The position numbers and the translations under genes are program-made. A stretch of DNA of 44,489 bases from Candidatus Cryosericum sp. (lineage in GTDB: Bacteria > Caldisericota > Caldisericia > Cryosericales > Cryosericaceae): contig DASVKR010000010.1 in assembly GCA_036385275.1 (NCBI GenBank), positions 1 through 44,489 on the forward strand, in the 5' to 3' direction. The notes under the pieces were generated by a model. That model was not told the origin of the DNA. It ran no database searches and was given only the letters and a program-made list of their open reading frames with translations. How positions within the stretch are numbered: position 1 is the stretch's first letter; the number at the start of each line of letters is the position of its first letter. This document shows, piece after piece, positions 106 to 34,323 of the stretch.

Positions 106-3100
106 ATGAATCATAAATTGCAGAAAGTTTTTATAAAGAAAAGTTCAAAGGTATTTTGGTTTAATTTTCCACTCAGATTAATAGTCTGTTTATTGGTTTG
201 TTTCTCTTTTATTCACCTTCCCTTATCTTTGGCTGCCATTACGCCCATTACTCCCATTACGCCCGTTACGCCTGTGTCGAGATGCCCTGCGACAACTCTA
301 TCCATCAGCACAGGATGGAATCATGCTACGAATACTGTCTACCCCGTAGGGTCATGGGATGATTACTGGACAGTAGTGAGTCAACCAGCAGGATTTGGTG
401 GTTCGTTGCCTAGGCCGACAAATGTGATAGTACTGCAAAGTGGATGGGCCCTGCAGCTTACAAACAGTCAGTGGTTAGGAGCTCATCCAGGCTCGATTAA
501 TGCTACCAACGGCGAATATGTATTTGAACGCAAATTCTGTGTGGCTGATACAAAAGATATACAGTTGACAATGCAGATACTGGTAGATGACGATGCCAAG
601 GTCTATCTCAATGGTACGAATCTAATTGGACAGACACCAATTGGACCATCTTCGTGCCCGGGCTGCAATTTCCAGTTACCTGCGTTAACAATCGCAACAA
701 CAAACGCTGCACTCTTTGTGCTGGGAACGAATACATTGAAGATTGTAGTGACGAACCGTTGGAGTAGAGCAATGGGATTGGATATATCGGGTTCCGTCAC
801 TGGTAACCTGATACGGCAGGAATGTTGTGATTCCAAAGGGGCTCTCGGTGGGTATAAATGGAATGATTTGAATGGGGACGGTATCTGGCAATCAACAGAG
901 CCAATGCTTGCAAACTGGCCGATTCTGTTATCCAACGGGATGACAACCACGACGGATCAATATGGGTACTACTTCTTCATGGAGGTCCCGACTGGGACTT
1001 ACACAGTAACCGAGGGACCCAAGGCAGGTTGGGTACAAACGTATCCGACGACACCGGGGTCGTACACTGTGATATTAGCTAATAATCAGATCATCAACAG
1101 TCTCAACTTTGGGAACCAAATTGGGAGTACAGGACAAATCTGTATTTGTAAATTTAACGATCTGAATGGCGATGGGAGACAAGAGGCCGGAGAGGGCCCC
1201 CTTGTTAATTGGGCGTTTAACGTCACAGGGAATAATTTCTCTGGCACAATTAAAACAGATGCAAAGGGTTGTGGTTGTCTAACAGTCCCCGCACCGGGAA
1301 CCTATACGGTTACCGAAGTAGGACAAGCTGGCTGGACAGTGACAACTAATAACAATCCTTCAACCGTGACTGTGGCGGCAGGAGGAACGGTAAATCTCTT
1401 ATTTGGAAATTATAAAAAAATAGAGACAGGACAACTCTGTGTAGAGAAGTTTAACGATTTAAATGGCAATGGAGTTCAGGACATAGGAGAACCCTTACTT
1501 GGGGGATGGGTGTTTAATGTTACAGGCTCGAATAATTTTGCTGGTACCATTACGTCTTCAGAAACAGGTTGTTCTTGTGCTTGCTTAACTGTTCCTGCAC
1601 CCGGAAGTTATACAATCACTGAGGTAGAACAAACGGGCTGGACCTTAACAACGGTAAATCCTCAGACAGTATCCATGGCAATAGGACAAACGGAAAAACT
1701 CTTATTTGGGAATAAAATTACCAATGGGACAGGACAAATCTGTATTTGTAAATTTAACGACTTAAATGGTAATGGGGTACAAGAGGCTGGCGAGGCCCCC
1801 CTTGTTGGTTGGATGTTTAATGTCAACGGACAGAGTTTCTCTGGCACAATTACAACAGATGCGAAGGGTTGTGGTTGTCTGACAGTTCCTGGGGGAACCT
1901 ATACGGTTACCGAAATAGGGCAACCTGGTTGGACTTTGACAACAACAAATGTTGGTAATAAGGTGTTTGTAACGGGAGGACAAACGGTAAATCTCTTATT
2001 TGGAAATAAAAAATCGAGCTGTATACCAATTTGTCAGGGTTGTATTAAGAAAATTATTCCCGACCCTCAAGTGAATAACAAATGGGAAGTTACCTTTGAT
2101 CCGGATTGTAACGCAAGTACCAATAATGATATGACTTATTATGTAACGGACATTCAAGTTTATACAGAACTTAAGGCAATTTTGGAAAAGTGTTCGGAGA
2201 TTGGCTCTTCAGGTTCTAAAATTTGGACGACAGACGATGATTTTATTGAAGGCACTTCGATGTCCGTAAACCATGGGTCTGATGCCTGGACCGATCCTCA
2301 CTCGGGGCAAGGGAGCCCCAATGATCAATTACAGATGACCATTCCCGGAAGTACTTTCCCCTTTATTTGGGTACCAAATGATAAAGACGGAACTGTTTCA
2401 TTACTTGCTACACAAACAACTATATTTAACACTCACTCTATTGTTGCGGGTACAGAATATGGTAGATATTTAACCGGTCCTACCAACAATGGCAATCCTT
2501 CCAGAACAACGGTAGATTTGTATGGAAATTGTTGGGTAGCTAACCGTAATACTGATACTGTTATTAAAATATTGAACCGATTTATTATGCCCATTGTTGA
2601 TATTAATACTCCACTTGACGGGGTGCAAACTTCTCCGGGATCAAGTTATTTAGCCTGGGGGAAAGATGACGCAGTTGTTTGGGAAGTTGACTTGGGCGTT
2701 TCTCCGGGCGTGTTTCGACCCGGGGCACAGCCTTTAACGGATTATACAAATTCTCCATATAACCAAATATTAAGAGCTACAAGCATTGATCGGAATAATG
2801 ACCTTTGGGTTGGGTCGTACGGTGGAACGAACAGTAATAATTATTATCATATTAGGTATAATGTGACTGGTATACCTGTTATACCTGTCACTGCAGACAC
2901 ATTTCCCAATGTTCCTTCATATGGATCCGTGATAGATAGATGTGGATTTATTTATGTAACTAATTATCAGGGAATAACTAGAATTGATCCAAGCAATGGA
3001 AGTAAATCATATGTTCCTTATGTTAATACTTATATTAGTGCTAATACATACCTTGGTTATGGGATAGCAATTGATAATGAATTGGCTAATAGGGTTTATA

Positions 3101-6100
3101 CCACTGATTATTCGCATGGTAAAATCTATGCCTGGGATACTTCTAATTGGCCAATTAGCATGGCTGCGCCTATTGCAATAGGTAACACTGTTGAAAGCTG
3201 TAGCGGTTTAACAGTAAGCAAAGATGGAATTTGGGTAGCAAATACTTGGGGTAACAAAATTATGCTTTTCGATAAAACCATTATACCAGGACCCCCAGGA
3301 ACCCCAGGAATCCTATCATTAATTAATAGCCTATTTACAAATATAGGATCAGACCCTGTTCTAAATCCAAAAGGTGTGGCTGTTGATTCAGAAGGTCATT
3401 GCTGGATAGTTGGACAGGGTAGTTCTGCAGTTAGAGAATATCAACTTATTAGTAGTACGATTACTCAGATAGGGCCATCATATAATGTTATTAATAGTGG
3501 AAATAGTCATTATGCCTATAGTGACATGACAGGGTTAATGGCAAATTCCATTGCTGCTCAGCATGGTATTTGGACTGCCACTTATGAAGCACCCTGCAAT
3601 GATCCAATATGGACAGCTTCATGGAATGTTAGCACCCCTAAATTTACCAGTTTACATCTTTCTTTTTTTACCAGTGACGATAACAACAACTGGGGGGTGG
3701 GAACGCCTACCAGTATAGTGGGGCCCGCAAGCCCTTCAACATCTTTTGTAAGTTTGACAACTCATCAAAAATACATAAAAGTAGAAGTTGAGTTTTTAAG
3801 TAACCCTCCTTGCGACACACCTTTGGAAAAATTCCCTACGCCTGTGTTGAAAGATATTACCGTCAACTGGACTTGCAAAGGAGGACAAAATAATAATTGC
3901 TGTGTCTACGCTTGTCTAACCGATGGTGTAATTTGGAACATTGATGAACAACATGTTGGTCAAAATCCTTGTTGTGGTAGTAGCGGGGGTAGAATTTTAG
4001 GAACCGTAAAAGGAAACTGTAGCCCCGGAACGATCATCCAAATTTCTGATCAAACAACAGGACAAGTTGTCTGGACAGGTTCAACGGATTCAACTAGTTC
4101 TTACGATACCGGAACTGACTGTAAATTAATTTGCGGAGAAACTTATAAAGTTGAACCATTGCAATCCTCAGGATGTACAATTACTCCGCTTTATCAGATT
4201 ATAACAATATCGCATTGTTGTCCCCCAACGCCCATTAATCCAGGATACGAAACAGTAAATTTTAAATGTGATTGTCAGCCTCACAAGGGTCGGATCCAAG
4301 GATTAGTAAAGGGAAAATGCAATCCCGTAACTATAAAAATTGAAGGTCTTGGGACAACCAATTATTCTGGAACTTTTACTACAGATTCATATACGGGCTT
4401 TTATCAAACTTCTCCCGGAGGTAACCCTCCCATTCGTTGCATTTTACCGTGTCCCGGTAAGTATCGTGTAACCCCTGTACCGGTAAATGGAGTAACATTT
4501 GTTCCTTCTTATGTAGAGATAGATATGAAAGAATGTTGTGAAGATAGTGTTTCATATGAGGCTGATTTTATTTGTACTGACAATATTGGAGACAGTATTG
4601 GACAAATTTGTATAAAGAAGTTTAATGACTTAAATGGTAACGGAGTACAAGATCCCAGTGAGTCACAACTTGCTGGCTGGAATTTTACTGTCCATAACCA
4701 AAGTACCGGTATTGATTATCCAATTGAATCCGCGGTACTGGATTGGGCTTGTGTGAAAATTCCTGCAGGTACCTATACGGTTACCGAAGTAGGACAAGCT
4801 GGCTGGACAGTGACGACTAATAACAATCCTTCAACCGTGACTGTGGCGGCAGGAGGAACGGTAAATCTCTTATTTGGAAATTATAAAAAAATAGAGGCAG
4901 GACAACTCTGGGTAGAGAAGTTTAACGATTTAAATGGCAATGGAGTTCAGGACATAGGAGAACCCTTACTTGGGGGATGGGTGTTTAATATTACAGGGCC
5001 TAACAATTTTATCGGCACCATTACGTCATTAGAAAGTGGAGGAGCTTTTCTTTCGGTTCCCGCAGGAATTTATACGGTTACCGAAGTAATGCAAACAGGG
5101 TGGACCTCGACGAAGGCAAATCCTCAAATAGTAAATGTAGTGGAAGGGCAAACAGCGAGTCTGGTATTTATGAACCATTTAATTAATAGCCCAGGAGGGC
5201 CCAAACTCAATCCCTTAATTCTTTCGGACCAAATCTGTAGCGGAAGTGAAGTGGCGGTTGATGAGAGTTGGACGGGGGGAGTAGCTCCCTTTACTTGGGT
5301 AGTTAATTATGGAGATGGAACTCCAAGTATTAATGGTTCATCAACAGGAAATAGACTAATTGTTCGTCATCTATATGCAGTCGTTGGTTTGTATACAATA
5401 AAGGTTATGGTCACAGATTCTAATGGTAAAACAGATTCTATTGCTCAGACGATTTCGGTCGTTGACTGTGAAGTTAAAGAAGAAGTATACCATCACACTT
5501 TCTTTATTGGCTATCCAGATGGGTTATTTAAACCAGAACGTAATGTTAGCAGAGCAGAAGTCGCGGCAGCGTTGTCACGAGCTCTAGGGTTAGGGTGGTC
5601 CAATACCAAACCTTCTTACCCCGACGTTTCTTCTACTCATTGGGCAACAGGATATATTCAAATAATGACGAAGGAAGGAATTATGGAGGGGGATGTCTCA
5701 GGGACATTCAGACCAGATGCATATATTACTCGCGCGGAGGCAGCTGCGGTTTTTTTACGAATGTTAAAAATTGCGCCTTTCAACAATTTAATAACTTCTT
5801 CTTTTAGAGATGTTGTTGCAAGTAACTGGGCGATTGGGTATATTGAATCAATGCAGAGATATGGACTTATCACCGGTTATCCGGATGGGACATACAAACC
5901 TAGTGCCAATATTGTTCGGTCAGAATTTGCGGCGATTGCGGATAGATCGCTTGGGAGAGAAATAAGTGATTCTTCACAAGTTACTGGATTGGGTGGAGGA
6001 GTTCGTTGGCCAGATGTTCCTCTTAATCACTGGGCTTATCTTTATATTTTAGAAGCGTCGACTCCACATACCGTGGAACAGGCAAATCGGTTGAATCGGA

Positions 6101-6279
6101 ATATTGTTTTAAGGGCAAAAACTATTCCTTTATTCTCTGATGGTACATCAATTGTTACTATCCACAGGGTGGGAGATGTGTTAACGGCCATCGTTCCGGT
6201 TGATGGGTTACAGCCGGATGGAACTGATCCTGCTGCTCGCAGGGTTGTTGTGCGCATTACCACCTTGCTTGCGCCGTAA
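106..6279 (+). CDS. Giant secreted SLH-anchored surface protein (SdrD-B/Ig-like repeats, probable beta-propeller, Cys-rich modules, PKD, 3x SLH)
   Basis: RBS AGGAGG upstream; basic then hydrophobic N-terminal signal; six K(F/W)NDLNG(N/D)G..Q...E..L..W repeats with GTYTVTE motifs; NPSRTTVD...YSDMTG propeller-like block; VNYGDG...HLY...YTIKV PKD signature; C-terminal GYPDG.FKP...SRAE SLH repeats. Confidence 0.9.
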   Translation: MNHKLQKVFIKKSSKVFWFNFPLRLIVCLLVCFSFIHLPLSLAAITPITPITPVTPVSRCPATTLSISTGWNHATNTVYPVGSWDDYWTVVSQPAGFGGSLPRPTNVIVLQSGWALQLTNSQWLGAHPGSINATNGEYVFERKFCVADTKDIQLTMQILVDDDAKVYLNGTNLIGQTPIGPSSCPGCNFQLPALTIATTNAALFVLGTNTLKIVVTNRWSRAMGLDISGSVTGNLIRQECCDSKGALGGYKWNDLNGDGIWQSTEPMLANWPILLSNGMTTTTDQYGYYFFMEVPTGTYTVTEGPKAGWVQTYPTTPGSYTVILANNQIINSLNFGNQIGSTGQICICKFNDLNGDGRQEAGEGPLVNWAFNVTGNNFSGTIKTDAKGCGCLTVPAPGTYTVTEVGQAGWTVTTNNNPSTVTVAAGGTVNLLFGNYKKIETGQLCVEKFNDLNGNGVQDIGEPLLGGWVFNVTGSNNFAGTITSSETGCSCACLTVPAPGSYTITEVEQTGWTLTTVNPQTVSMAIGQTEKLLFGNKITNGTGQICICKFNDLNGNGVQEAGEAPLVGWMFNVNGQSFSGTITTDAKGCGCLTVPGGTYTVTEIGQPGWTLTTTNVGNKVFVTGGQTVNLLFGNKKSSCIPICQGCIKKIIPDPQVNNKWEVTFDPDCNASTNNDMTYYVTDIQVYTELKAILEKCSEIGSSGSKIWTTDDDFIEGTSMSVNHGSDAWTDPHSGQGSPNDQLQMTIPGSTFPFIWVPNDKDGTVSLLATQTTIFNTHSIVAGTEYGRYLTGPTNNGNPSRTTVDLYGNCWVANRNTDTVIKILNRFIMPIVDINTPLDGVQTSPGSSYLAWGKDDAVVWEVDLGVSPGVFRPGAQPLTDYTNSPYNQILRATSIDRNNDLWVGSYGGTNSNNYYHIRYNVTGIPVIPVTADTFPNVPSYGSVIDRCGFIYVTNYQGITRIDPSNGSKSYVPYVNTYISANTYLGYGIAIDNELANRVYTTDYSHGKIYAWDTSNWPISMAAPIAIGNTVESCSGLTVSKDGIWVANTWGNKIMLFDKTIIPGPPGTPGILSLINSLFTNIGSDPVLNPKGVAVDSEGHCWIVGQGSSAVREYQLISSTITQIGPSYNVINSGNSHYAYSDMTGLMANSIAAQHGIWTATYEAPCNDPIWTASWNVSTPKFTSLHLSFFTSDDNNNWGVGTPTSIVGPASPSTSFVSLTTHQKYIKVEVEFLSNPPCDTPLEKFPTPVLKDITVNWTCKGGQNNNCCVYACLTDGVIWNIDEQHVGQNPCCGSSGGRILGTVKGNCSPGTIIQISDQTTGQVVWTGSTDSTSSYDTGTDCKLICGETYKVEPLQSSGCTITPLYQIITISHCCPPTPINPGYETVNFKCDCQPHKGRIQGLVKGKCNPVTIKIEGLGTTNYSGTFTTDSYTGFYQTSPGGNPPIRCILPCPGKYRVTPVPVNGVTFVPSYVEIDMKECCEDSVSYEADFICTDNIGDSIGQICIKKFNDLNGNGVQDPSESQLAGWNFTVHNQSTGIDYPIESAVLDWACVKIPAGTYTVTEVGQAGWTVTTNNNPSTVTVAAGGTVNLLFGNYKKIEAGQLWVEKFNDLNGNGVQDIGEPLLGGWVFNITGPNNFIGTITSLESGGAFLSVPAGIYTVTEVMQTGWTSTKANPQIVNVVEGQTASLVFMNHLINSPGGPKLNPLILSDQICSGSEVAVDESWTGGVAPFTWVVNYGDGTPSINGSSTGNRLIVRHLYAVVGLYTIKVMVTDSNGKTDSIAQTISVVDCEVKEEVYHHTFFIGYPDGLFKPERNVSRAEVAAALSRALGLGWSNTKPSYPDVSSTHWATGYIQIMTKEGIMEGDVSGTFRPDAYITRAEAAAVFLRMLKIAPFNNLITSSFRDVVASNWAIGYIESMQRYGLITGYPDGTYKPSANIVRSEFAAIADRSLGREISDSSQVTGLGGGVRWPDVPLNHWAYLYILEASTPHTVEQANRLNRNIVLRAKTIPLFSDGTSIVTIHRVGDVLTAIVPVDGLQPDGTDPAARRVVVRITTLLAP
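238..276 (+). repeat. Imperfect 9-bp tandem repeat encoding ITPITPITPVTPV linker
   Basis: attacgccc attactccc attacgccc gttacgcct gtg. Confidence 0.7.
1300..1526 (+). repeat. 227-bp intragenic direct repeat, copy 1 (copy 2 at 4771-4997)
   Basis: Ungapped near-identity at offset 3471, about 4 mismatches counted by eye. Confidence 0.9.
4771..4997 (+). repeat. 227-bp intragenic direct repeat, copy 2
   Basis: acctatacggttaccgaagtagg...ttacagg matches 1300-1526. Confidence 0.9.
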
Positions 6280-6357: not shown

Positions 6358-6493
6358 TGTGGAAAAATATTGAGGTTGATTGGAACGGAACAACGCAAAC
6401 GATTATGATAACATACGAACCAGCAACTTTAGACCTGCCTAATTAGGATAACATATCCAGGAAGTTAAGTTTCATATTGATATGTAAAAAAGC

Positions 6494-8050
6494 GTGCGTA
6501 AACTGTTTGAAGATGCTGCTGCCCGGAAGTTCTCCAAGTTGCTGATTTCCAAACTCGATCGGTGGGCACGCAATACGAGGGACTTCTACAATACATATGA
6601 CCGCCTTAGCAAGTACGGTGTCAGCCTTCTGGTACCTGACCAAGTTCCTGACACAGACTCCGCAACAGGGAAAGCCTTCATGGGGTTTCTTGCTGTATTT
6701 GCTGAATTGGAAGGAAGCATCATCAAGGGTCGCGCTATCAACACTACTGAGCATCTGAAAGCAGACGGAAGGGTGCTGGGACATCTTCCCTATGGCTACA
6801 CGTCAGGATTTCACACCGTAGTCCCGGATGAAGAGAAACTGAGGACAGCGAGAAGAGTGTATGATTTGTTCGAATCGGGGCACAGCCAACGAGACATCGC
6901 CCGTATGCTTGCAGTAGACGGGCTTACTCGGGACATAGTACGCGTGATCCTGACGAACCCGATCTATGCGGGAATGGTTGCTTATGGGCGAGGGAAAGTG
7001 GCGGGAGACCAACGGAAGCGCAAGAGTGGTGGGGTCGTTGAATCCTCGGGGTCCGAGCCGAAGCCCACCATAGACAAAGTCAAGAAGATAGTCAGCTACG
7101 AAGAGTGGTGTCAGGTGCAGGAGGACATCAGGAACAACTTCCGGCATGCTCAGGCGAAGACGTATCCTCTGTTCCAACATTTACTGTACTGTTCGACGTG
7201 CCACCACTTCCTGTCGGCTCATGGAGACGCCAAGGGCAAGACGAAATACGCTTGTGAGAACGACCGTGAGGGTCGCGTGAAGATTGGGATCCAGACAGGT
7301 GATCCTCAGCCGGAGCTGGCGGGCAGGCATTACTGCGGCCAGCAGCTTTGGGAACAGTACTTGGAGTTTCCAGTCGTTCGAGCTCTGGACGAGGCTGTGC
7401 GAGAGTGGAAGCCAGACATTGACCTCAGCCAGGAAATCAAAGACGTTCAGACCAAGCTCAGTCGTGCAATGGGCGTGGAGAACAGAGAGAAGGCTGATAT
7501 GGAGAATCCAGAGAAACCCTACGAAATCGCTGCCGCAAGGATGAAGAAAGCGCATGCGGTGGTCGAGGCAATCCATGAGAGACTTGACGCGCTCAAAGAA
7601 GAGAATGCTTCGCAAGAACTAGTGAAACGAATGCTCAAAGAAGGTTTTATGGAATTTTATTATAGCAAGAGACGTACCAAAGAACAGAAGCAGGGCATTT
7701 TGCAGCATCTCATCCGCAGGATTGATGTCGGGCCGCAAGAATTGACAATCACATGGCTCTTCATGAAAGACGGAAAGCGCCGAATACCTCGGAGCGCGAC
7801 AGATCCCAAGGGAGGTCATGGAAAACCCCAGAAATACGACCCAAAAGCCCAAAAACGGACCGTATCTGATGATTGTATAGCAAGACAAAACGCCAGTAAA
7901 AAGACCCCTTCCGGGGTCTCAGGTGGACGATTGGTGGAGATAGGGGCGTTGGACCACGCTGGCGAACACCCGTCGTCGCAACCTGAGAGCGCGGTCGTGG
8001 ACGCGCTTGCAGACGCGTTGCTCCGTATTCGCTCTCCCAGCAGTCGCTAG
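6494..8050 (+). CDS. Large serine recombinase (resolvase, recombinase, zinc ribbon, coiled coil), apparently 5'-truncated
   Basis: KLDRWARN, GK..MG.LAVFAELE...I..R, LPYGY, ILTNPIYAG, LLYCSTC...KYAC...C, LIRRIDV motifs. N-terminal YxRVS catalytic segment is absent and there is an in-frame TAA at 6485. Confidence 0.9.
   Translation: MRKLFEDAAARKFSKLLISKLDRWARNTRDFYNTYDRLSKYGVSLLVPDQVPDTDSATGKAFMGFLAVFAELEGSIIKGRAINTTEHLKADGRVLGHLPYGYTSGFHTVVPDEEKLRTARRVYDLFESGHSQRDIARMLAVDGLTRDIVRVILTNPIYAGMVAYGRGKVAGDQRKRKSGGVVESSGSEPKPTIDKVKKIVSYEEWCQVQEDIRNNFRHAQAKTYPLFQHLLYCSTCHHFLSAHGDAKGKTKYACENDREGRVKIGIQTGDPQPELAGRHYCGQQLWEQYLEFPVVRALDEAVREWKPDIDLSQEIKDVQTKLSRAMGVENREKADMENPEKPYEIAAARMKKAHAVVEAIHERLDALKEENASQELVKRMLKEGFMEFYYSKRRTKEQKQGILQHLIRRIDVGPQELTITWLFMKDGKRRIPRSATDPKGGHGKPQKYDPKAQKRTVSDDCIARQNASKKTPSGVSGGRLVEIGALDHAGEHPSSQPESAVVDALADALLRIRSPSSR
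7931..8050 (+). repeat. att-like site 1: 16-bp identity to tRNA-Ala 3' end plus family-A arm, inside the LSR 3' end
   Basis: TTGGTGGAGATAGGGG at 7931-7946 equals 34247-34262; arm block GGACCACGCTGGCGAA at 7951-7966. Confidence 0.9.
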
Positions 8051-8174
8051 ACAGGAATCGTTGCCGAACACTAGGGCCTGCCCTTTCTGGGTTGTCCGGC
8101 GTGCCAGTGAAACTGGCGTGTCGTCCTCTTTCCTCTATCTCATGCAATGCGGAGCAAGGAGCTCAGGAATAGCA

Positions 8175-9701
8175 TCACAGGAACTGTGACGTGTCCATAA
8201 CGATTGTCGGGATCAGTCCACTACCTCGTTTTCTGTTCTCTTCGATATTGACGCAGTTGATCAGGTAGATGATCGATGACTTCGCCAGTCTCATCAGATT
8301 GACCGTCTCACCTAGCATCGTGCTGTAACCGATATTCTCTTTGTCGTCTTTCTTGTCCGAATCAGTCGGCACTGAATCACAGATCACTAGTTTCCTATGA
8401 GTTGAGGCGTTCCTGATAGCCTGGAGGGGCTCATAGTAACCAGACTTGAAGTCCTGATATATGTCATAGAGGGCATACAAGCTGATGTTCTTTGATTCCA
8501 GGATCCTATCTCTTATCCTTCCGTCTAGTTGCCAAATCGTCGTGAAGTATATGCGGTCTGTTCGTAGTCCCAGGTTGTAGTAATCGTTTATGAAGACAGC
8601 AATCTTGTCCAAGATGTTGTAGGCTTCTTTGAAGGCTGATTTCAAGAGGCCAGAATACAGATTGAATTGCGAATAGTCCAACGTATTCACAAAAGTCGTT
8701 CTTCTGCTGATGCTGTCAAAGTCCTCTCTCTTGAATTGAGATTGCACCAATAGCAGCCTGGCAACAGCATAGTCTTCCTTGATTTGGTTGATGCTCTTCG
8801 CGAGTCGATAGAAGGTGTCGTCGTCTTCTATCGGCGTTATCAAGCTAATGAAGATGGGGTCAGTGATTGCCGATTCGCACTGCGTATCATGAACATGGAA
8901 ATTCAAGAAGAGCTTCTCCTTGGCACAGAAAGCCAAGTAGTACTCTTCGAATGTGGATAGGTTGGTCGTAGAGTAGTTGGGATGTGCAAGTCTCTTTGTT
9001 AGGTCTGTCTTGTCCTTGAAGCGGGATGCAATCCCTTGCAGTTCGTCTTCAAACGATTTCCTCGCGCTCAGTCCTCCAATTGCGATCAAGTCCTGATTAT
9101 CGATGATTGACTTTATCGCCTGGTATGCTTCGACATAGATCGCTCCTCTGTATCTCCCTGAGATATCAGCAAAGAAGCGCAGGGCTTTCGCCCTGTTCCC
9201 GATTGCCATTGAGAAGTGCTCGTCAATTGCTATTGCAGCATCATAAGCATCGAAAGCTTCCACCCCTCGCCCTAACATGTCTAGACAGTTGCCATAGTTG
9301 ACGAAGACTTGTTTCCTGAGGTCGCGTCTTGACTCGTCGCCATTTCTCAGAGCGTCTCTGAGGTGCTCTTTTGCCTTCTGCAAGTTGGCGCTTCTGGGGA
9401 TGCTCTCAACTCCGAGGTTTCTTTCAGTAAGGTAGTACAGAGAAGCGTAGCCGTTGGCCAGGTTGTAGTGAATATGGGGGTCATGTCCTGCGTACATGTA
9501 GTTCCGCAAATTGCGTTCTCCAATATCCAAAGCTTGCGCAAGAAGACGGTGATCACCTAGACCAATGCCAATGGCGACTAGAAAGGGCGGTTTGTTGAAT
9601 TGCAGGATGGCATCATCTGAATGCCGGGCTTCGCAACTCTCAACTCCCTCAAGGGCTTCCTGGAACCTACCCCGATCGATGAGAGAGGAGATGCGTTTCA
9701 T
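8175..9701 (-). CDS. TPR + LA2681-like HEPN domain protein (putative defence RNase)
   Basis: TPR-like helices (YNLANGY, VNYGNCLDMLGR..EA...YD.A); NQIKEDY..AR.LL, AFKEAYNILDKIA.FINDY; HEPN motif RNASTH; RBS GGAGG. Confidence 0.8.
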   Translation of the reverse strand: MKRISSLIDRGRFQEALEGVESCEARHSDDAILQFNKPPFLVAIGIGLGDHRLLAQALDIGERNLRNYMYAGHDPHIHYNLANGYASLYYLTERNLGVESIPRSANLQKAKEHLRDALRNGDESRRDLRKQVFVNYGNCLDMLGRGVEAFDAYDAAIAIDEHFSMAIGNRAKALRFFADISGRYRGAIYVEAYQAIKSIIDNQDLIAIGGLSARKSFEDELQGIASRFKDKTDLTKRLAHPNYSTTNLSTFEEYYLAFCAKEKLFLNFHVHDTQCESAITDPIFISLITPIEDDDTFYRLAKSINQIKEDYAVARLLLVQSQFKREDFDSISRRTTFVNTLDYSQFNLYSGLLKSAFKEAYNILDKIAVFINDYYNLGLRTDRIYFTTIWQLDGRIRDRILESKNISLYALYDIYQDFKSGYYEPLQAIRNASTHRKLVICDSVPTDSDKKDDKENIGYSTMLGETVNLMRLAKSSIIYLINCVNIEENRKRGSGLIPTIVMDTSQFL

Positions 9702-9888
9702 GTCCTCCGCTGTATGCTGACTGTTCTCACGCTTCGATCGTTGTGGCTGTTTCGTGGCTCCTCCTTGGTGCTACGTGCTCCTCCCCGTCCCAGTAGCGCT
9801 TGTGCTACACAAATGATCGTTTGAGAGCGGTATCCCGTCAAGGCGGGAAACGACAAAAACAGAACCACAATACCTGATGGTTCCTTCT

Positions 9889-10539
9889 CTATTGCCTGTC
9901 GCTCTTTCCTTGCTCCGAATTATCGTTGTTCACATGTTCTCCATTCTGAAGACCAACAGGAGGCAGTCCATTCGTGTCCTGAGGTAGGCCCTCTTTGCTG
10001 CTTCCCAGCAGAACAAAACACAAGACAGTACAACCGAGCGAAAGCAATAGTGCACAGTAGAAAGCTGGCTCAAAACTGAAAACTAGCTCTGGTGCTTGTT
10101 GGGAAAGAGCTTCGCCAAACAGGGCGGGAGCCTTGAAGTACGACCCGACGAAAGCGACTGATTGGACAACGGATGTGCACATCATCGCACCGAGGGAGTC
10201 TTCGCCGCCCAAGGATCCTGCCACGATACCAAAGCCTGAAAGGACCATGATACCGATGAGAACGGTCTGTGTGGTCGATGCTAGCTTCTTGCCAACGGTG
10301 GCGCTAAGCTGTTTGCTCGTCTGTCCATTTTCGAAATCAATGTACCCACCGGTTGCAAGCTGGTACCCGGTGGCACTCGCAACCTTCTGTCCGGTGCATG
10401 AAACCATCGCCCAGGGAAGAAAGAACATGATGATAATCCCGAGAAATAGCAGCCTGACGAACGATGCACTCTTCACTCTCTTGGTCTCCACCCGCGAGGC
10501 ATAACCCCCTCGATGTGGTATGTGGGTGGCAAGCACCAC
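9889..10539 (-). CDS. Hypothetical membrane protein (about 4 TM helices)
   Basis: Hydrophobic segments, FFLPW..VSC.G motif; start uncertain. Confidence 0.65.
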   Translation of the reverse strand: MVLATHIPHRGGYASRVETKRVKSASFVRLLFLGIIIMFFLPWAMVSCTGQKVASATGYQLATGGYIDFENGQTSKQLSATVGKKLASTTQTVLIGIMVLSGFGIVAGSLGGEDSLGAMMCTSVVQSVAFVGSYFKAPALFGEALSQQAPELVFSFEPAFYCALLLSLGCTVLCFVLLGSSKEGLPQDTNGLPPVGLQNGEHVNNDNSEQGKSDRQ

Positions 10540-10570
10540 TGTCCCCGTGCCGTGCGTCTTGCACAGAGGT

Positions 10571-11338
10571 TCACTTGGTCCAACCTGAGACTAGTCTATT
10601 CACTGCGTCGAAGAACCGATTGGCGCCGGGTTCAATGTGAACGGCCGCGCGCATGGAGAGATAGATTACGACCGCAGAAATCACCAAGCCCACCGCTTTT
10701 CGCAGAACCCTGTTCTTGGGGATGACAGCTCTCAGTGCTGGCACGACGAAGCCCAAGAGAACAGGGCACGACAGGACTAGGAAGATCGGAACATAGAGGA
10801 AGTGCGTCCAGATGTCCCTGTAGTCTACGAAGAGGTCTAGGAACAGGAAGAAGACGACTGCTGTCAGTGCGTACTCGAATAGCAGCACCTTCATGCTGCC
10901 GGTGCCACGGGGAAACTTGGTCCACAGCTCAACGCAGACGACTACGACCAAGACCATGAACAGGAATGAGAGAACGTGCGCGAACCAGCGGATTTGCAGC
11001 TGCCCGATGAAGACGGAAACAGCGGTGAACACACCGATCACCTCGAGGAGGGTGTGGTTGTCCTCCAGGAGTTCAGAGAGCGTCATGGCTGGTTTGGGCT
11101 TGGCAACGGCGTGTTCTGGGACGGTGGCTTCAACAGAAGTGGGAGTCACCGGTTCGTTGCCGGCGGGATGCGCTGATACAGCACTCTCTGAGATGGGAGC
11201 AGCAGTCATTGCGAGCGGTTGCGGCTTCAATGTTGACAAGAGTCTCAATGAGCTGACTGCAGCGACAATGCCCAGCCAAAATAACGATTGTTTCGTCGTC
11301 AACACGCGCCCCCCTAGCTCGCGACACTGGCTCGTCAA
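10571..11338 (-). CDS. Hypothetical multi-pass membrane protein
   Basis: 5-6 hydrophobic helices; co-oriented with 9889-10539; start uncertain. Confidence 0.65.
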   Translation of the reverse strand: MTSQCRELGGRVLTTKQSLFWLGIVAAVSSLRLLSTLKPQPLAMTAAPISESAVSAHPAGNEPVTPTSVEATVPEHAVAKPKPAMTLSELLEDNHTLLEVIGVFTAVSVFIGQLQIRWFAHVLSFLFMVLVVVVCVELWTKFPRGTGSMKVLLFEYALTAVVFFLFLDLFVDYRDIWTHFLYVPIFLVLSCPVLLGFVVPALRAVIPKNRVLRKAVGLVISAVVIYLSMRAAVHIEPGANRFFDAVNRLVSGWTK

Positions 11339-11522
11339 ACTGACTCTGAACGGATCCCCAGTACATCAAGCCATTGTCAGTATGGCGATGAAGGCGCTTT
11401 CTGCAACTACCAGTGCTGGCGGCGTTTGCGTGTCTGCGTGCGTATCACCGTACAGGAGTTTGTCCTGTCGGGGGATCCAGTCGGTCCGGAGAGGTACTTC
11501 AGACGCGGTATTGGTGTGGTCG

Positions 11523-11615
11523 TGCTGGAGATAGCGGTGTTGGACCACGCTGGCGAATACCCCATGCTGCAACCCGAAAGCGTAGTTGCTAACGCTCTTG
11601 CGGAATGCTTTAGGT
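11523..11615 (+). repeat. att-like site, family A (degenerate core plus arm)
   Basis: TGCTGGAGATAGCGGTGTTGGACCACGCTGGCGAA aligns ungapped with 7932 onward; reads LEIAVLDHAGEYPMLQPESVVANALAE. Confidence 0.85.
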
Positions 11616-14416: not shown

Positions 14417-15952
14417 CTATTTTACAACGCTGATCTTCCCCTTGATGACGTCGGCGGCATGCTTTGAACGGATTTCAAATGCAACGCTGTCTGGGACCTT
14501 CTTGAAGTACAAGATGGATGGAAACGAGACCGTCTTGTGCTGATTGAGCTTGCTGACCCTGAACATCCATATGTCAGTACCATTCTCGGGATTGCTGTAT
14601 GGTTCGTAGCAGAGAATCCGCATCATTCTCTCTCGAAAGGCTCCTTGTTGCTGTCTGCGGGACTCTTCTGGAGACCACGCGGGGATGAATAGGCCAGAAC
14701 CGAGTGTTGGGGGGTAGTCAGAGTATGCGTCGACGTCTAGCATCCCTTGAGGCATGAAGAATTCTCTTTCCATGTTCTGGTCGTTGAACAGCTGCACATA
14801 CGCACCGTCAGGAGCGGTGAACTCGCCAATGCCACAGACGCAGCCACCAGGCAACTCGAGGCGGATCTCGATATCTTCATCGTAAGATGTGCCTTTGTTG
14901 GAAATAGCTCCGAAACAGACGGACTGGGTAGGCAGGCTGTTGATGAACGTCTTCTCAGCCACGAAGCTCCCAATGCTGGACACAAGGTGGATGATTGCGT
15001 TGTACTTCTCTTTTTCGATAGGAGATGATGCCGTAATACCCCCTCTGACGTCTTCCCAAAGGTCTCCGACATCGAAGAAACTAGTGTCATCGAGCTGAAT
15101 GTTCTGCACGTCGCAGAATCTCCTGATCAACTTGCGAGCCTCATCAACCACAACAACCTTCTTTCCCCTAATGAAGCTGCCGCCAATAGCCTGGATCTGA
15201 CTTTGGAGAGCTGAGATCGCAGCAACACCTCCGATCACGTTTCCGGCTTCAGGCCCTGTCTTGTTCTCTCTTTGTGGCACGAGGCGCATTGCACTGATCT
15301 GCGCGATCTGGCTTGTGAGCGAATCCTTGGCCTCACGCAGGCGTCTGTCGAAGTAGTCGTATTCTACGTGCAGCTCATCAGTGAGCTTGCCATTGAGGAC
15401 TCCACAGACAGTAAGCCTGGGAAGCGTCGACGCAGTAGAAACTGTCTTGCCGAGAGCGTCTGTATTGTCCCTAATGTACTGCTCAAGATCATTCGAGAAT
15501 TTTCCCCGAAAGTCCTCTGCTGAATCGAATGTCTTGTACAGGGTGTCTCCTTGGCGCCGCTGCTTGAATTCTTTTACTTTCTGCAGTTGGTCACTTTGAA
15601 GGTCGGCCGGGGGAACTGGCACGTTGGAGAAGTACAGGAACACACCCTTGCCCTGATTGCGCATCCTAGAGATCTCCTCTTCCGTACCTGACCCGTAAGC
15701 GTCAGTCGGCGTGCCAAAACGCGTCCAGAAGATGGCGACGGCGAAATCGCACCCGTCGACGACTTGATGATTCAGTGCTTCCTGTGGCTTCTTGGTCTCG
15801 GGATAAGCCAAGTGCCAGTCCTTCAAGACGATGGCCAGGTCTTCATGGCGCTTGTTGAAATCATCAACAACCGTCCGTACCACGTCCAGCTCCTCTTTGA
15901 CGTCCGAGGGGCACGAAATCAGCATGTCATATCGTGTGACATTTCTTGCCAT
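14417..15952 (-). CDS. DUF4062-like (TIR/nucleoside-deoxyribosyltransferase-like fold) N-terminal domain protein, putative defence
   Basis: LISCPSDV.EE, PQ..LN.Q....CD..VAIFWTRFGTPT....SGTEEE, VFLYFS motifs; RBS GGAGG. Confidence 0.8.
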   Translation of the reverse strand: MARNVTRYDMLISCPSDVKEELDVVRTVVDDFNKRHEDLAIVLKDWHLAYPETKKPQEALNHQVVDGCDFAVAIFWTRFGTPTDAYGSGTEEEISRMRNQGKGVFLYFSNVPVPPADLQSDQLQKVKEFKQRRQGDTLYKTFDSAEDFRGKFSNDLEQYIRDNTDALGKTVSTASTLPRLTVCGVLNGKLTDELHVEYDYFDRRLREAKDSLTSQIAQISAMRLVPQRENKTGPEAGNVIGGVAAISALQSQIQAIGGSFIRGKKVVVVDEARKLIRRFCDVQNIQLDDTSFFDVGDLWEDVRGGITASSPIEKEKYNAIIHLVSSIGSFVAEKTFINSLPTQSVCFGAISNKGTSYDEDIEIRLELPGGCVCGIGEFTAPDGAYVQLFNDQNMEREFFMPQGMLDVDAYSDYPPTLGSGLFIPAWSPEESRRQQQGAFRERMMRILCYEPYSNPENGTDIWMFRVSKLNQHKTVSFPSILYFKKVPDSVAFEIRSKHAADVIKGKISVVK

Positions 15953-16534: not shown

Positions 16535-16899
16535 CCGTGTGGAAGATGACCGATGGAGAAAGGGTCACGCTGCGGCATGCGTGTGTGCAGCGAATTGACG
16601 TAGACTTTGATTCCATGCGGGATACAGTGCTGTGGACGTTCAGTAGCACCCTAAGTCATCTAGATCTTGCAGAGGCCAAGGCAATTTCGGTACAACTCTC
16701 ATATGCTAATCGGAAAGGGGCATCAAAAGCCACTACTACACCTAGGTGTCAAATGGTGGAGCCGAGGGGCAAGGACCGGTCGTCACGACCACTTCTGGAT
16801 GCTCTTCTCACCGTTCTACGAGCTCATTCGGCAGAGGCAGTTGCGAGGAGTGCTGCAGGGGCTGCGATAGAGCAACGTCCAAGCACGGTTTCCCGCTAG
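16535..16899 (+). pseudogene. Probable C-terminal remnant of a second serine recombinase running into an att-like site
   Basis: ERVTLRHACVQRIDVD...VLWTF resembles EQKQGILQHLIRRIDVG..LTITWLF of the LSR; same frame continues into MVEPRG. Confidence 0.5.
16754..16830 (+). repeat. att-like site, family C (core TGGTGGAGCCGAGGGG)
   Basis: 16-bp core identical to 22925-22940; colinear downstream arm. Confidence 0.75.
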
Positions 16900-17786: not shown

Positions 17787-18190
17787 AGTACCTCTCTCCC
17801 ATGTACGATTTGCCCGTGTCTTGTTGGACCATGGTTCACGTCAGTGGCAAAACACCAGCATAGAAGTAGGTTAGCAGAAGACTAGGTATTTGCGACGTTT
17901 ATAGGCGAGAGATCAGTCTCGGCGATGGCAGTTCCGTACTTGCCGTTTTGGGACCTGGGCGAACCGCTCAGAAGTCGCCCTTCCTGCCCCGCCATGGCTC
18001 ACGTGCAGGAGGCGCACGTACATCTCGGTACGGCGAATCGGTGAGTGGCACCCTCTCTCATCACTACACGTCGAGACATCGCCGCCGCCGGACTGCTGAC
18101 GTAGTCATCTACTTGCAGTTCTTGGCGAATGCGCGAACTGACTCGTTCCGCAGTCAGTCCCAAGCCAAAAGGGGTTGGTTGTGATTGTGC

Positions 18191-18205
18191 GGTGGAGATA
18201 GGGGG
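18191..18205 (+). repeat. att-like core, 15-bp identity to tRNA-Ala 3' end
   Basis: GGTGGAGATAGGGGG equals 34249-34263. Confidence 0.8.
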
Positions 18206-18341
18206 ATTGGTGGGTCCTCTCGACTCTCTGTTGATGTGCTAATTGGCGCACTTCAGATGCGGTCGTTGGAGACAACTCGTACCTAGCGAGCGATGGTCGG
18301 GCACTCAGGAGGCAGTCGGAGGTAGGAGAGTGGTGGTTGTG

Positions 18342-18648
18342 TGGTGGAAATCGGGGTCTTGAACCGACGTGGCAACATCACGGAACTGCGCTCGAAAGCA
18401 TCCAGACTGCTTGAAGGCGGCAAGGTCATGCAGTTCGGGACAAAGTCGGTCCGGGAGACGGTACGGGTTGAACCGATTCTCGTGCTTAAATACTTGGCAG
18501 CGAGGATTAGTCACCTTTCATCGAGAGAGCAACGCCCCGGATGAGCCCCTATTGTCGGTGCTCGGAACAAGATCATGTACGGCGCCAGATCTGGTGGTCG
18601 TCTGGCAAGGTCTCTGTTGACTCTCCGCCATCCTGTTCATCTACAGCT
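18342..18648 (+). repeat. att-like site, family B with ~300-bp arm
   Basis: TGGTGGAAATCGGGG core; GCATCCAGACTGCTTGAA at 18398-18415 identical to 32658-32675 at the same offset; patchy similarity continues to TCATCTACAGCT. Confidence 0.8.
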
Positions 18649-21695: not shown

Positions 21696-21710
21696 GGTGG
21701 AGATGGTGGG
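21696..21710 (+). repeat. Possible degenerate att-like core
   Basis: GGTGGAGATGGTGGG, intergenic, same orientation as the other cores; only 9 bp exact. Confidence 0.3.
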
Positions 21711-21868
21711 CGAACAGGCACCCGTGCGATCTATAGGCATAGTCAATGTTGAAGCTGGTCTTGGAGGTAGTCCTTGGTGTCGGTAGCTGCTTGAACGGGA
21801 AGGACACTACGCACCGTGAATGCTCGATCCCCCGTAAGAGTGCAAAGCAGGAGCTGACAGCAGGAATG

Positions 21869-22924: not shown

Positions 22925-23000
22925 TGGTGGAGCCGAGGGGGAACGCCCCTCCTGACAACCACTTTGTCGGTGCTATTGTCAGCATTCCCCAAGCTAGATC
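22925..23000 (+). repeat. att-like site, family C
   Basis: TGGTGGAGCCGAGGGGG; reads VVEPRGNAPPDNHFVGAIVSIPQA, colinear with MVEPRGKDRSSRPLLDALLTVLRA at 16753. Confidence 0.75.
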
Positions 23001-23132
23001 ACTAGGTTCGAAGCCATGTTCGCAGAAGAAGATATCCAGCCGGGTTCATCCGGCCTAGCCAGACTCTTTGAGGCCGCCGCTCGTGACAGTGGGCCTGCCG
23101 TGTCAATGGCATCGACTGGATAGTCAAGCCGC

Positions 23133-29382: not shown

Positions 29383-30228
29383 ATGAACTCTACTGATTCA
29401 GCAGACGCGTGCGTTAGTGATTTTCGAAAGCGCTGGAGTATGACCCAGGTTCCTGCAGAGGCAATTGAGGACTTCCGAAACAGAGCGTTCGGGAGCATCA
29501 AGGAAGCCCTCGGAGGCTTGATACTAGATGATTCGTCGATATCGAACGCTTTCCTCCACGCGTTGGGGGAACCGGTGTCATCGGATGATTGGGGGTACAT
29601 CGACAAGCTGACGGAGACGCCACTCTGGCACGCTCTAGAGCGAAGAACTACCCTGCCCGACTTCGTTCTCGCACTTGAGGTTCTGTTTCACATCGGGTTG
29701 GATGGTCATATACAACAACAACTGGCGTGGCTGTTGCGCAAGGACATTGTGGCTTCAGGAGTACCAGTCTCGTGTGCCGAGAATAGTGGTTGCCTCACTT
29801 TCTACCCGGAGGGGGCGCGACTGCTTGATGAGCAGGTCATCAACGCTGATCTCACTTGGCTTGGTGCCTACCCGGAGGCTTTGAAGGCTTTTTCCGAGGC
29901 CCTCAGCGTCTACGGTTCGTCTGGTCAGCACAGACACATGCTTGATTGCCTCAGACTATGTATTGAAGAGCTAGCTAGGAAGGTGCTGGGGAATGAGTTG
30001 TCCCTGGAGAAGAACACCGTCGGTTTGTTGGCACTTCTTGAGCCCGTGCTAAGCAAGGAGACGCGGAACATGACTCGCGTGCTGCTCGACTACTACACCA
30101 GATATCAAAACGAACACGTCAAGCACCACGATGACTCGACTCCAGTCGAGGTCGCATTCATCCTGTATCTCACTGCGACATTCGTCTACCTGTTCATTGC
30201 GGCGCGTCGGGAAACCAGCCATGACTAG
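29383..30228 (+). CDS. Abi-like protein with C-terminal HEPN-like domain
   Basis: RBS GAGGAGG; LDCLRLCIEEL...LGN..SLE and YQNEHVKH...E..FILYLT..F. Confidence 0.7.
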   Translation: MNSTDSADACVSDFRKRWSMTQVPAEAIEDFRNRAFGSIKEALGGLILDDSSISNAFLHALGEPVSSDDWGYIDKLTETPLWHALERRTTLPDFVLALEVLFHIGLDGHIQQQLAWLLRKDIVASGVPVSCAENSGCLTFYPEGARLLDEQVINADLTWLGAYPEALKAFSEALSVYGSSGQHRHMLDCLRLCIEELARKVLGNELSLEKNTVGLLALLEPVLSKETRNMTRVLLDYYTRYQNEHVKHHDDSTPVEVAFILYLTATFVYLFIAARRETSHD

Positions 30229-32369: not shown

Positions 32370-32603
32370 CTCACGAACTGATAGACAGTAGCTGGATGCA
32401 CTTCTGCACAGGAGACTGGAGCGGTTCTGGCTACTGAGGCGGACTCTTCTCTCTGCTGCTCGGCCTGGGCGTTCTCTGCCACAGGGAGGGCGCTGAAACT
32501 CCACCAGTAGCGAGAGAAAGCGAGGAAGCACGCTGGAGAAGAGTAGCACATCTGAAACGAAGGTAGTGCTTATGTGGTATTCAGGAAGTCACGTAGTACG
32601 GGA

Positions 32604-32912
32604 GTGGAGATAGTGACCTCAAACCACTGTGACGGTGCTGCGTTACGGCATCGCCTCGCATCCAGACTGCTTGAACGCAGGAGCCTCAGACAGTCCCAGG
32701 CAAGTCCCGCTCCGGAGAATATGCTGGTCACCCCGGTCCTCCTGACTGAGCACTTAGCGGCACGGACTACTCATCTTTCATTGAGAGTGCAACCAGCTAG
32801 GTGAGATCCGGGTGTGTGTGCTTGACACAATATCAAACGCGGCGTCAGACCGGAGGGCTGATTCTCTTGGGGAGTTGCTATTGATGATCTGCCATCCCCG
32901 TCATCAACAGCT
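32604..32912 (+). repeat. att-like site, family B with ~300-bp arm
   Basis: GTGGAGATAG core; reads VEIVTSN...ASRLLE...P.L...LAAR..HLS.R.Q, colinear with 18344-18544. Confidence 0.8.
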
Positions 32913-32932: not shown

Positions 32933-33038
32933 GGGGTCGGACCACGCTGGCGAACGCCCGTCATCAAAACCCGAGAGCGTAGTGGTTGACGCTCTTGCGG
33001 ATACCTTGTTGCAGGTCCGATGCTCGCACACCGAGTGA
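32933..33038 (+). repeat. Family-A arm lacking the tRNA core
   Basis: GGACCACGCTGGCGAA at 32939-32954; reads DHAGERPSSKPESVVVDALADTLLQVR. Confidence 0.85.
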
Positions 33039-34047: not shown

Positions 34048-34247
34048 GATAGCAAAACACGTATTGATAGCGTCAGGAGGTCTTGAGCGTATTCGTGGAA
34101 GTCGCACGGCCAAACCTGTGCCACCAATCAGCGTCGCTCAGACCAAATTGGTTCCCCGCCATTGCGTTTGCTTCAACTCGATCTGCGCACGGAGGGGAGT
34201 CGGTGGAGTCTGAAGATAGAACTGCAAACGCAGTATTGATGAGGCTT

Positions 34248-34323
34248 TGGTGGAGATAGGGGGGCTCGAACCCCCGACCTCCTGCATGCCATGCAGGCGC
34301 TCTCCCAGCTGAGCTATATCCCC
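34248..34323 (-). tRNA. tRNA-Ala (anticodon GGC)
   Basis: 76-nt cloverleaf GGGGATA...CCTGC-ATGGCAT-GCAGG...TTCGA...TATCTCCACCA, G3:U70 pair, encoded CCA. Confidence 0.98.

What the first reader, a model, noticed from the sequence alone, without database searches (positions are those of the whole stretch)
7931..8050. att site lies inside the recombinase gene; downstream arms are swappable C-terminal tails
Seen: the LSR frame reads through the core (LVEIG) into ALDHAGEHPSSQPESAVVDALADALLRIRSPSSR*. Homologous arms read LEIAVLDHAGEYPMLQPESVVANALAE (11523) and DHAGERPSSKPESVVVDALADTLLQVR (32939). Between the first and last, V-V-D-A-L-A-D is kept with five synonymous third-position changes (gtc/gtg, gtg/gtt, gcg/gct, gca/gcg, gac/gat). 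Joining the LSR directly to the tRNA would give LVEIGGLEPPTSCMPCRRSPS*. Established analogy: in mycobacteriophages BPs and Brujita attP lies within the repressor gene, so integration alters its C-terminus. Inference: each recombination event would change the recombinase tail, possibly controlling directionality or stability.
Basis: partly seen in the sequence, partly recalled or inferred. Interest (0 to 1): 0.82.

Follow-up and report, generated by a model that had tools for sequence, protein, structure and literature searches.

The report
Integrase with swappable, selected C-terminal tails
A DNA-inserting enzyme of Cryosericum bacteria has its insertion site inside the end of its own gene, so near-identical copies of the enzyme end in different short tails borrowed from neighbouring gene cassettes or from a tRNA gene; the cassette tails are conserved as protein and likely act as a switch needed for integration, although the copy in this window has lost its catalytic start and is predicted to be dead.

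Summary
Observation confirmed. The large serine recombinase (LSR) frame runs through a 14-bp core, the antisense 3' end of tRNA-Ala(GGC), into a 34-residue tail. The swap is seen in nature: the window enzyme's own 90% cluster carries three different tails, including the predicted tRNA-encoded one, and a second LSR family carries tRNA, B, C and C2 tails behind an identical 25-residue stretch. Tails are under purifying selection in the LSR frame (dN/dS 0.33, 0.40, 0.37 for families A, B, C). Corrections: the window's LSR lacks its first ~70 residues with the catalytic serine; the two other A arms are damaged; there are at least five more tail types; about 15 of 50 genome-derived arms are broken. 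Best reading: an Mx8-like switch in which the tail is needed for integration, and integrase-less cassettes keep tails to ride with a resident LSR (inferred, untested). The layout is published for Dehalococcoides DsiB (PMC3146451), which left the tail's role open, and this scan noted it before in at least 15 other genomes. New here: measured selection and combinatorial exchange. New variant of a known kind; interest 0.57.

The parts
6488..8050 (+). LSR reading frame, 5'-truncated (residues ~71-551 of P0003, 95% identical), ending in tail A; predicted inactive
7865..7932 (+). left att arm (family L2) inside the LSR's linker; holds a hairpin 7903-7918 with an A run, terminator-like on the minus strand by eye (not listed by the scan)
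7933..7946 (+). att core, identical to the antisense 3' end of tRNA-Ala(GGC); encodes VEIG; crossover inferred within its first 7 bases
7947..8050 (+). tail A (34 codons + TAG); right att arm of the next cassette (7933-11523); predicted single helix in the natural fusion P0008
8175..9701 (-). cargo of the first cassette: LA2681-like HEPN protein
11470..11609 (+). junction L1 left arm + mutated core (11524) + damaged arm A
16755..16843 (+). core of tRNA-Ala(CGC) type with a D-like tail
18130..18342 (+). L0 left arm + core (18191) + arm D (-1 frameshift in the G run) + L5 left arm: a 152-bp cargo-less cassette
18343..18418 (+). degenerate core + arm E
21696..21782 (+). degenerate core + arm B (+1 frameshift)
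22926..23010 (+). second core of tRNA-Ala(CGC) type with a related tail
32603..32690 (+). degenerate core + arm E
32940..33038 (+). arm A without core; open frame with stop (TGA) at the codon-39 position
34180..34248 (+). L1 left arm at the tRNA-proximal junction
34248..34323 (-). tRNA-Ala(GGC), the anchor; its antisense strand encodes the 16-residue tail after VEIG

Best explanation
This is a tandem array of small islands at the 3' end of tRNA-Ala(GGC) whose serine integrase has the recombination core inside its last codons, so the enzyme ends in whichever tail lies across the junction, and the island-borne tail is a protein-constrained, predicted helix that is likely needed for integration (an Mx8-like direction switch, untested). 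Shown: core inside the gene; the same enzyme with different tails; free reassortment of left and right arms at the core; dN/dS of 0.33-0.40 in the tails. Inferred steps: (1) in the excised circle the LSR is joined to an island tail and integrates; (2) integration replaces that tail with the 16-residue antisense-tRNA peptide, giving a form that would not re-integrate; (3) later arrivals insert at the tRNA-proximal junction, push the older LSR inward and hand it their tail, which is the state at 7933; (4) integrase-less cassettes keep their tails because, when they leave together with a downstream LSR element or insert behind one, their arm becomes that enzyme's tail; (5) inward LSRs decay, as here.
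For: Natural swaps: window cluster has tRNA (3), A (1), C2-type (1) tails among 6 members, 1 without the region; clusters 2 and 6 show tRNA, B, C, C2 tails behind the same 25 residues; full-length LSRs end in A (P0008), B (P0065), C (P0070), C2 (P0059). DNA reassortment: 30 pairs share a left arm (<=3 of 60 differences) but differ in right class, 16 pairs share a right arm (<=3 of 100) but differ on the left (pairs not independent). Selection: dN/dS A 0.33 (95% CI 0.24-0.45, n=20), B 0.40 (0.32-0.50, n=64), C 0.37 (0.24-0.56, n=10); column shuffles never reached it (0 of 60, 0 of 25, 0 of 60); strongest beyond the DNA-binding range (codons 14 on: 0.27, 0.48, 0.24); stop at codon 38-39 in 15 of 19 A arms. 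Left remnants are less constrained (0.63-1.31). Short terminal branches stay low (0.26, 0.35, 0.32); B and C arms with the same downstream flank stay low (0.36, p 3e-8; 0.43, p 0.006). Of 18 cluster representatives with the catalytic motif, 14 end in the tRNA tail and 4 in an arm; intact LSRs sit next to the tRNA in L002, L004, L006 with cassettes lacking an intact LSR distal in the two mapped arrays. AlphaFold puts a helix at P0008 599-613 after a disordered linker. Precedent: Mx8 (PMC6070905 passage; title of Tojo and Komano 2003 in a reference list); DsiB (PMC3146451 passages).
Against: No activity, expression or binding was measured. About 15 of 50 genome-derived arms are broken (11 at the junction, 10 of them by one base at the G run; hand count). 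Broken arms show the same low dN/dS (0.33-0.49), so the measure cannot tell current from recent selection. For arm A itself, same-flank pairs give 0.66 (p 0.13, 5 links), and arm A and its L1 left arm show no significant co-divergence (rho 0.28, p 0.185, n=6). Left remnants of families 0 and 3 also fall below 1 in close pairs (0.56, 0.42). The mirror antisense frame gives 0.46, 0.49, 0.37, equal to the sense frame for C. Arm D shows no codon periodicity (n=6). Tail families are so unlike one another that one shared docking function is not obvious. Helix confidence is modest (pLDDT about 68, pTM 0.50). Decay of inward LSRs is equally explained by age.
Confidence: 0.5

Rival explanations
1. Relic tails: the tails mattered only on ancestral, integrase-bearing islands; on today's integrase-less cassettes the arms serve only as att DNA and are decaying, so the array is a stack of scars.
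For: About 15 of 50 genome-derived arms are broken; broken arms keep low dN/dS; arm A same-flank pairs 0.66, not significant; no co-divergence of A with L1; window enzyme truncated.
Against: Short terminal branches and same-flank B and C pairs stay at 0.26-0.43; six A arms on L1-ended cassettes give 0.27 (0.17-0.45) while 1 of 25 L1 arms has even a weak LSR-profile hit upstream and L1 spacing to the core varies by 4-7 nt; right arms are more constrained than left remnants.
Confidence: 0.2
2. The tail is a negative element (degradation tag or auto-inhibitory helix): a cassette that inserts behind a resident LSR switches it off and so locks itself in.
For: Fits the same selection data; BPs repressor precedent for an att-removed degradation tag (PMC3694055 passages).
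Against: The constrained part is the internal helix, while the last residues vary freely, unlike a terminal tag; the circle form would carry an inhibited enzyme just when it must integrate; arm-tailed inward LSRs are often truncated anyway.
Confidence: 0.15
3. The arms are translated on their own from the core's GTG as small peptides that act in trans on the LSR, like a directionality factor.
For: Would explain selection on integrase-less cassettes and the 152-153-bp tail-only cassettes; ATG replaces the GTG at three sites.
Against: Shine-Dalgarno strength before the GTG equals that of shuffled sequence (median -3.8 both, p 0.59, 107 junction 20-mers); the upstream DNA changes with every neighbour; natural fusions exist.
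Confidence: 0.1
4. The conservation is at DNA or RNA level, or belongs to the antisense frame.
For: Codons 6-13 of A and C are slow-evolving with dN/dS 0.80 and 1.59, as for a binding site; mirror frame is also below 1.
Against: Codon periodicity and low dN/dS are strongest 25-85 nt beyond the core; the sense frame is the one LSRs read into and fits better for A and B; stop position kept with TAG, TAA or TGA.
Confidence: 0.05

Closest known systems
Dehalococcoides ssrA genomic islands and their LSR DsiB (McMurdie et al. 2011, PMC3146451; passages read)
   Same: LSR gene overlaps att at its 3' end and reads on into the RNA gene or the next island; tandem islands, many without an integration module; authors suggest full function only on the circle or beside an island with the right 3' fragment.
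   Different: Target is tRNA-Ala, not ssrA; the paper calls the DsiB ends divergent and leaves their role open, whereas here several tail families are constrained and exchanged among near-identical enzymes.
Myxophage Mx8 integrase (review PMC6070905 and Islander PMC4383910, passages; primary papers not held, titles only)
   Same: attP inside the integrase gene; integration gives a new C-terminus and, per the review, changes the enzyme's behaviour without killing it.
   Different: Tyrosine recombinase (stated in PMC4383910's framing), one phage, two forms; no array of alternative tails.
Archaeal suicidal (SSV1, pTN3, pT26-2) integrases (PMC8371274; passages and section 31)
   Same: att inside the integrase gene; hybrid int(N)/int(C) genes proposed; frame kept across att.
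   Different: Tyrosine family; the split removes the catalytic domain, while here only a tail beyond all Pfam domains is exchanged, and hybrids arise at tandem junctions.
Integration-dependent immunity of mycobacteriophages BPs/Brujita (PMC3694055; passages)
   Same: Integration edits a protein's C-terminus.
   Different: The edited gene is the repressor and the removed piece a degradation tag; no conserved terminal motif is seen here.

Membership tests
Large serine recombinases | N-terminal resolvase domain with catalytic serine | tested here: met
   Met for full-length relatives (PF00239, RVST). Not met for the window copy, which starts at model position 52.
Large serine recombinases | Recombinase domain, zinc ribbon and coiled coil | tested here: met
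   PF07508 above cut-off in window, P0003, P0008; PF13408 below cut-off but four invariant Cys; long helices 387-461 in the model.
Large serine recombinases | Fold of solved serine integrases | tested here: met
   Best Foldseek hits are serine integrases (9dxd E 7e-19, Bxb1, phiC31); TP901-1 by sequence.
Large serine recombinases | Unidirectional attP x attB reaction reversed by an RDF | not testable with these tools
   Arrays imply use of hybrid sites; no RDF gene was sought.
Dehalococcoides ssrA islands (DsiB) | LSR gene overlaps att at its 3' end | tested here: met
Dehalococcoides ssrA islands (DsiB) | Tandem islands, many without integrase | tested here: met
Dehalococcoides ssrA islands (DsiB) | Target is ssrA | tested here: not met
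   Target is tRNA-Ala(GGC)
Dehalococcoides ssrA islands (DsiB) | dsiA/recF/parB/mom module beside the LSR | not tested
   Neighbours of intact LSRs were not annotated; in the window the upstream part is lost.
Mx8-type integrase | att inside the integrase gene changes its C-terminus | tested here: met
Mx8-type integrase | Tyrosine recombinase | tested here: not met
Mx8-type integrase | Tail change alters activity | not testable with these tools
   needs an assay
Archaeal suicidal integrases | Integration separates the catalytic domain from the rest | tested here: not met
   Core lies after all Pfam domains and a disordered linker
BPs-type integration-dependent immunity | attP in a repressor gene removes a terminal degradation tag | tested here: not met
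   Gene is the recombinase; terminal residues vary

The most novel reading that the evidence does not exclude
A cassette system in which integrase-less gene cassettes each carry a licence: a tail exon that completes and activates a shared serine integrase only when the cassette is joined to it, with several interchangeable tail families and tail-only 152-153-bp mini-cassettes that retune the enzyme, so the order of the array sets the recombinase's direction or rate.
Probability: 0.25. Interest if true: 0.82.

Novelty: new variant of a known kind. Interest (0 to 1): 0.57.

Why it matters
Serine integrases are major genome-writing tools, and their direction is normally set by a separate factor. 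A family whose own recombination edits a selected C-terminal helix would be a built-in switch, and nature supplies matched variants (one body, four or five tails) for a direct test. It also addresses the question left open for DsiB in 2011, whether such overlapping tails matter, and explains how integrase-less cargo blocks (here with HEPN and PADLOC candidate-defence genes) could stay mobile in tRNA-anchored arrays.

Tried and rejected
Complex prediction of LSR body with tail A was not available, so docking of the tail is untested. No RNA holder was listed, so expression is open. Read laying found no joint that removes a whole cassette in the four-run sets (contigs only; two weak joints with 20-22-base sides were set aside); the 6490 junction is in one piece at even depth only in the run that may be this DNA's source, which is not independent; in three other runs matches begin at 6490. 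No relative in viral contigs (0 of 17 candidate stretches), so no free circle was seen. Dyad-symmetry scan did not fix the crossover (best 0.27-0.31 complementarity). IQ-TREE codon output gave no readable omega; an own MG94 fit on fixed HKY trees was used. The Fisher tests are not relied on: the metagenome pattern demanded CG after the core and so favoured in-frame arms, and some left-arm indels lie where homology ends (8 of 29, not 15, lie within 75 nt in family 0). The host's empty site could not be pinned down. Tail A has no Pfam match. Rows left out: 74 of 206 core matches unclassified at first pass, mostly chance hits in unrelated genes; L055_5127 dropped from C; families D, E, F, C2 too few to model. 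The metagenome scan covered 20 of 64 parts. Paper searches that gave nothing for an LSR tail-swap system: 0 papers each; 1 unrelated listing; Mageeney 2020 and the Mx8 primary papers are not held; Durrant 2022 has no tRNA or C-terminal passage in its main text; PMC12884075 passages added nothing. No supplements were read.

Full report
Observation. The frame 6488-8050 (+) is a serine recombinase (Pfam Resolvase and Recombinase) that reads through a 14-bp core at 7933-7946 into a 34-residue tail. The core is the antisense 3' end of tRNA-Ala(GGC) at 34248-34323. The only run that spans the joint may be the source of this DNA; in three other runs matches start at 6490. I read the window copy as a dead enzyme.

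Setting. Related loci with titles are mostly Candidatus Cryosericum. The core occurs in 21 of 23 genus genomes at up to one mismatch; arm A in 9 of 84 class genomes, all in this genus. Mapping arrays with profiles shows units of the form core - right arm - cargo - left arm - core, stacked behind the tRNA; the window holds eight core sites besides the tRNA and one coreless arm. Right arms fall into families A, B, C, C2, D, E, F; left arms into at least 13 families, some of them clear LSR 3' remnants (family 0: 26 of 29 hit the LSR profile), others not (family 1: 1 of 25, weakly).

The swap is real. Full-length LSRs abut the tRNA and end in the antisense-tRNA peptide (L002, L004, L006), or end in A (P0008), B (P0065), C (P0070) or C2 (P0059, L005). 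Among 24 cluster representatives, the 18 with the catalytic motif carry the tRNA tail 14 times and an arm 4 times. The window enzyme's own cluster of 6 has tRNA tails (3), A (1), a C2-type tail (1) and one member without the region; another lineage shows tRNA, B, C and C2 tails behind an identical 25-residue stretch. At DNA level, 30 pairs share a left arm but differ in right class and 16 pairs share a right arm but differ on the left (not independent). Tail A therefore belongs to the cassette downstream of 7933, not to this LSR. Sites of a sister type, matching tRNA-Ala(CGC), share left arm L1 while the core type follows the right arm, with one exception; I infer that the crossover lies in the first seven bases of the core.

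The tails are constrained as protein. Third positions vary about twice as much as first and second in A, B and C, not in D. An MG94 fit gives dN/dS 0.33 (A, n=20), 0.40 (B, n=64), 0.37 (C, n=10), with upper 95% limits 0.45, 0.50, 0.56. Four other frames give 1.0-2.9; the mirror antisense frame gives 0.46, 0.49, 0.37, its expected shadow, though equal to the sense value for C. Column shuffles never reached the observed values (0 of 60, 25, 60). For A and C the first eight codons behave like a DNA site (0.80, 1.59) and the rest like protein (0.27, 0.24); B is low in both parts (0.28, 0.48). The A stop stays at codon 38-39 in 15 of 19 arms while the preceding codons vary. AlphaFold of the natural fusion P0008 gives an LSR fold (best hits solved serine integrases), a disordered linker at 517-596 and one helix at 599-613 with modest confidence. 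A tail A profile found 23 proteins among 1.84 billion; the 22 printed are this arm, one long repeat protein was not inspected.

Is selection current on integrase-less cassettes? For: short terminal branches 0.26, 0.35, 0.32; same-flank pairs 0.36 for B and 0.43 for C; six A arms on L1-ended cassettes 0.27; left remnants 0.63-1.31. Against: same-flank A pairs 0.66, p 0.13; no co-divergence of A and L1; broken arms keep low values; close pairs of left families 0 and 3 are also below 1; and 11 of 50 genome-derived junctions are out of frame, about 15 of 50 arms broken in all (hand count). The figure of 100 of 112 in-frame junctions is inflated by the metagenome pattern. So past selection is shown; current selection is supported for B and C and unresolved for A.

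Mechanism. I commit to an Mx8-like switch (0.5). The circle joins the LSR to an island tail and integrates; integration installs the tRNA tail; newcomers enter at the tRNA-proximal junction and give their tail to the older LSR; integrase-less cassettes benefit from a working tail when co-excised with, or inserted behind, an intact LSR. The first clause of each step (which tail sits where) is geometry seen in the data; every effect on activity is inferred. [quoted passage not shown] Rivals: relic tails (0.2), inhibitory or degradation tail (0.15), free peptide (0.1; no Shine-Dalgarno excess over shuffles), DNA-level constraint (0.05).

Comparison and novelty. It works like DsiB of Dehalococcoides ssrA islands, where the same overlap and the same hypothesis are in print, but fails membership on the target. 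It resembles Mx8 and archaeal suicidal integrases but is a serine enzyme and loses only a tail. The Islander paper of 2014 states that serine integrases were not known to target tRNA genes; later work may have changed that and I could not read Mageeney 2020. My searches found no paper on selected, exchangeable LSR tails; most subscription papers are outside the library. Unchecked notes of this scan report the layout in at least 15 other genomes, which makes it a recurring design rather than a local oddity. Verdict: new variant of a known kind, interest 0.57; the value lies in the measured constraint and the ready-made panel of tail variants.

Noticed in passing
window 18191-18342; L033 15953-16105; L052; L062 11327-11479; L058 3550-3702: A 152-153-bp cassette made only of core, arm D and left arm L5, with no cargo, recurs in five genomes; similar 125-bp units with another tail precede L1 junctions in L033 and L036.
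   Followed up: partly
window 16755 and 22926; L055: Cores matching tRNA-Ala(CGC) lie inside the GGC array, and a sister array at tRNA-Ala(CGC) holds a GGC-type site and L1 arms: cassettes appear to cross between two tRNA-Ala loci.
   Followed up: partly
window 106-6279: A 2057-aa S-layer/SdrD-B repeat gene at about 40-44% GC in a 57% GC genome abuts the truncated LSR at 6490; foreign DNA or an assembly join.
   Followed up: partly
window 7872-7918: The LSR linker before the core holds a minus-strand hairpin with a T run and a promoter-like match pointing into the LSR gene; this region shows dN/dS 1.3, as if kept for DNA signals.
   Followed up: no
window 8175-9701, 14417-15952, 18668-20185, 29383-30228: Cargo includes HEPN proteins and PADLOC candidate-defence matches PDC-S60, PDC-S58 (weak), PDC-S32.
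   Followed up: no
L016 391-1944; L012, L013, L020, L028, L029: More distant LSRs lie beside tRNA-Arg and tRNA-Gln/Glu in this genus, and L016 reads through the tRNA-Arg antisense strand.
   Followed up: no
window 18200: A contig of run X5 has one more G in the core's G run, which would restore the arm D frame; one-base changes at this run make up most junction frameshifts, a possible on/off variation.
   Followed up: partly
G000 contig C158, 972, 4420 and 15595: A second stretch of the same genome holds three more arm sites (B, D-like, B).
   Followed up: no
L050, about 60-25 nt before the core at 8379 (minus strand): A near-consensus sigma-70 promoter-like spacing, seen by eye in a left arm of family 9, points toward the tail.
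   Followed up: no
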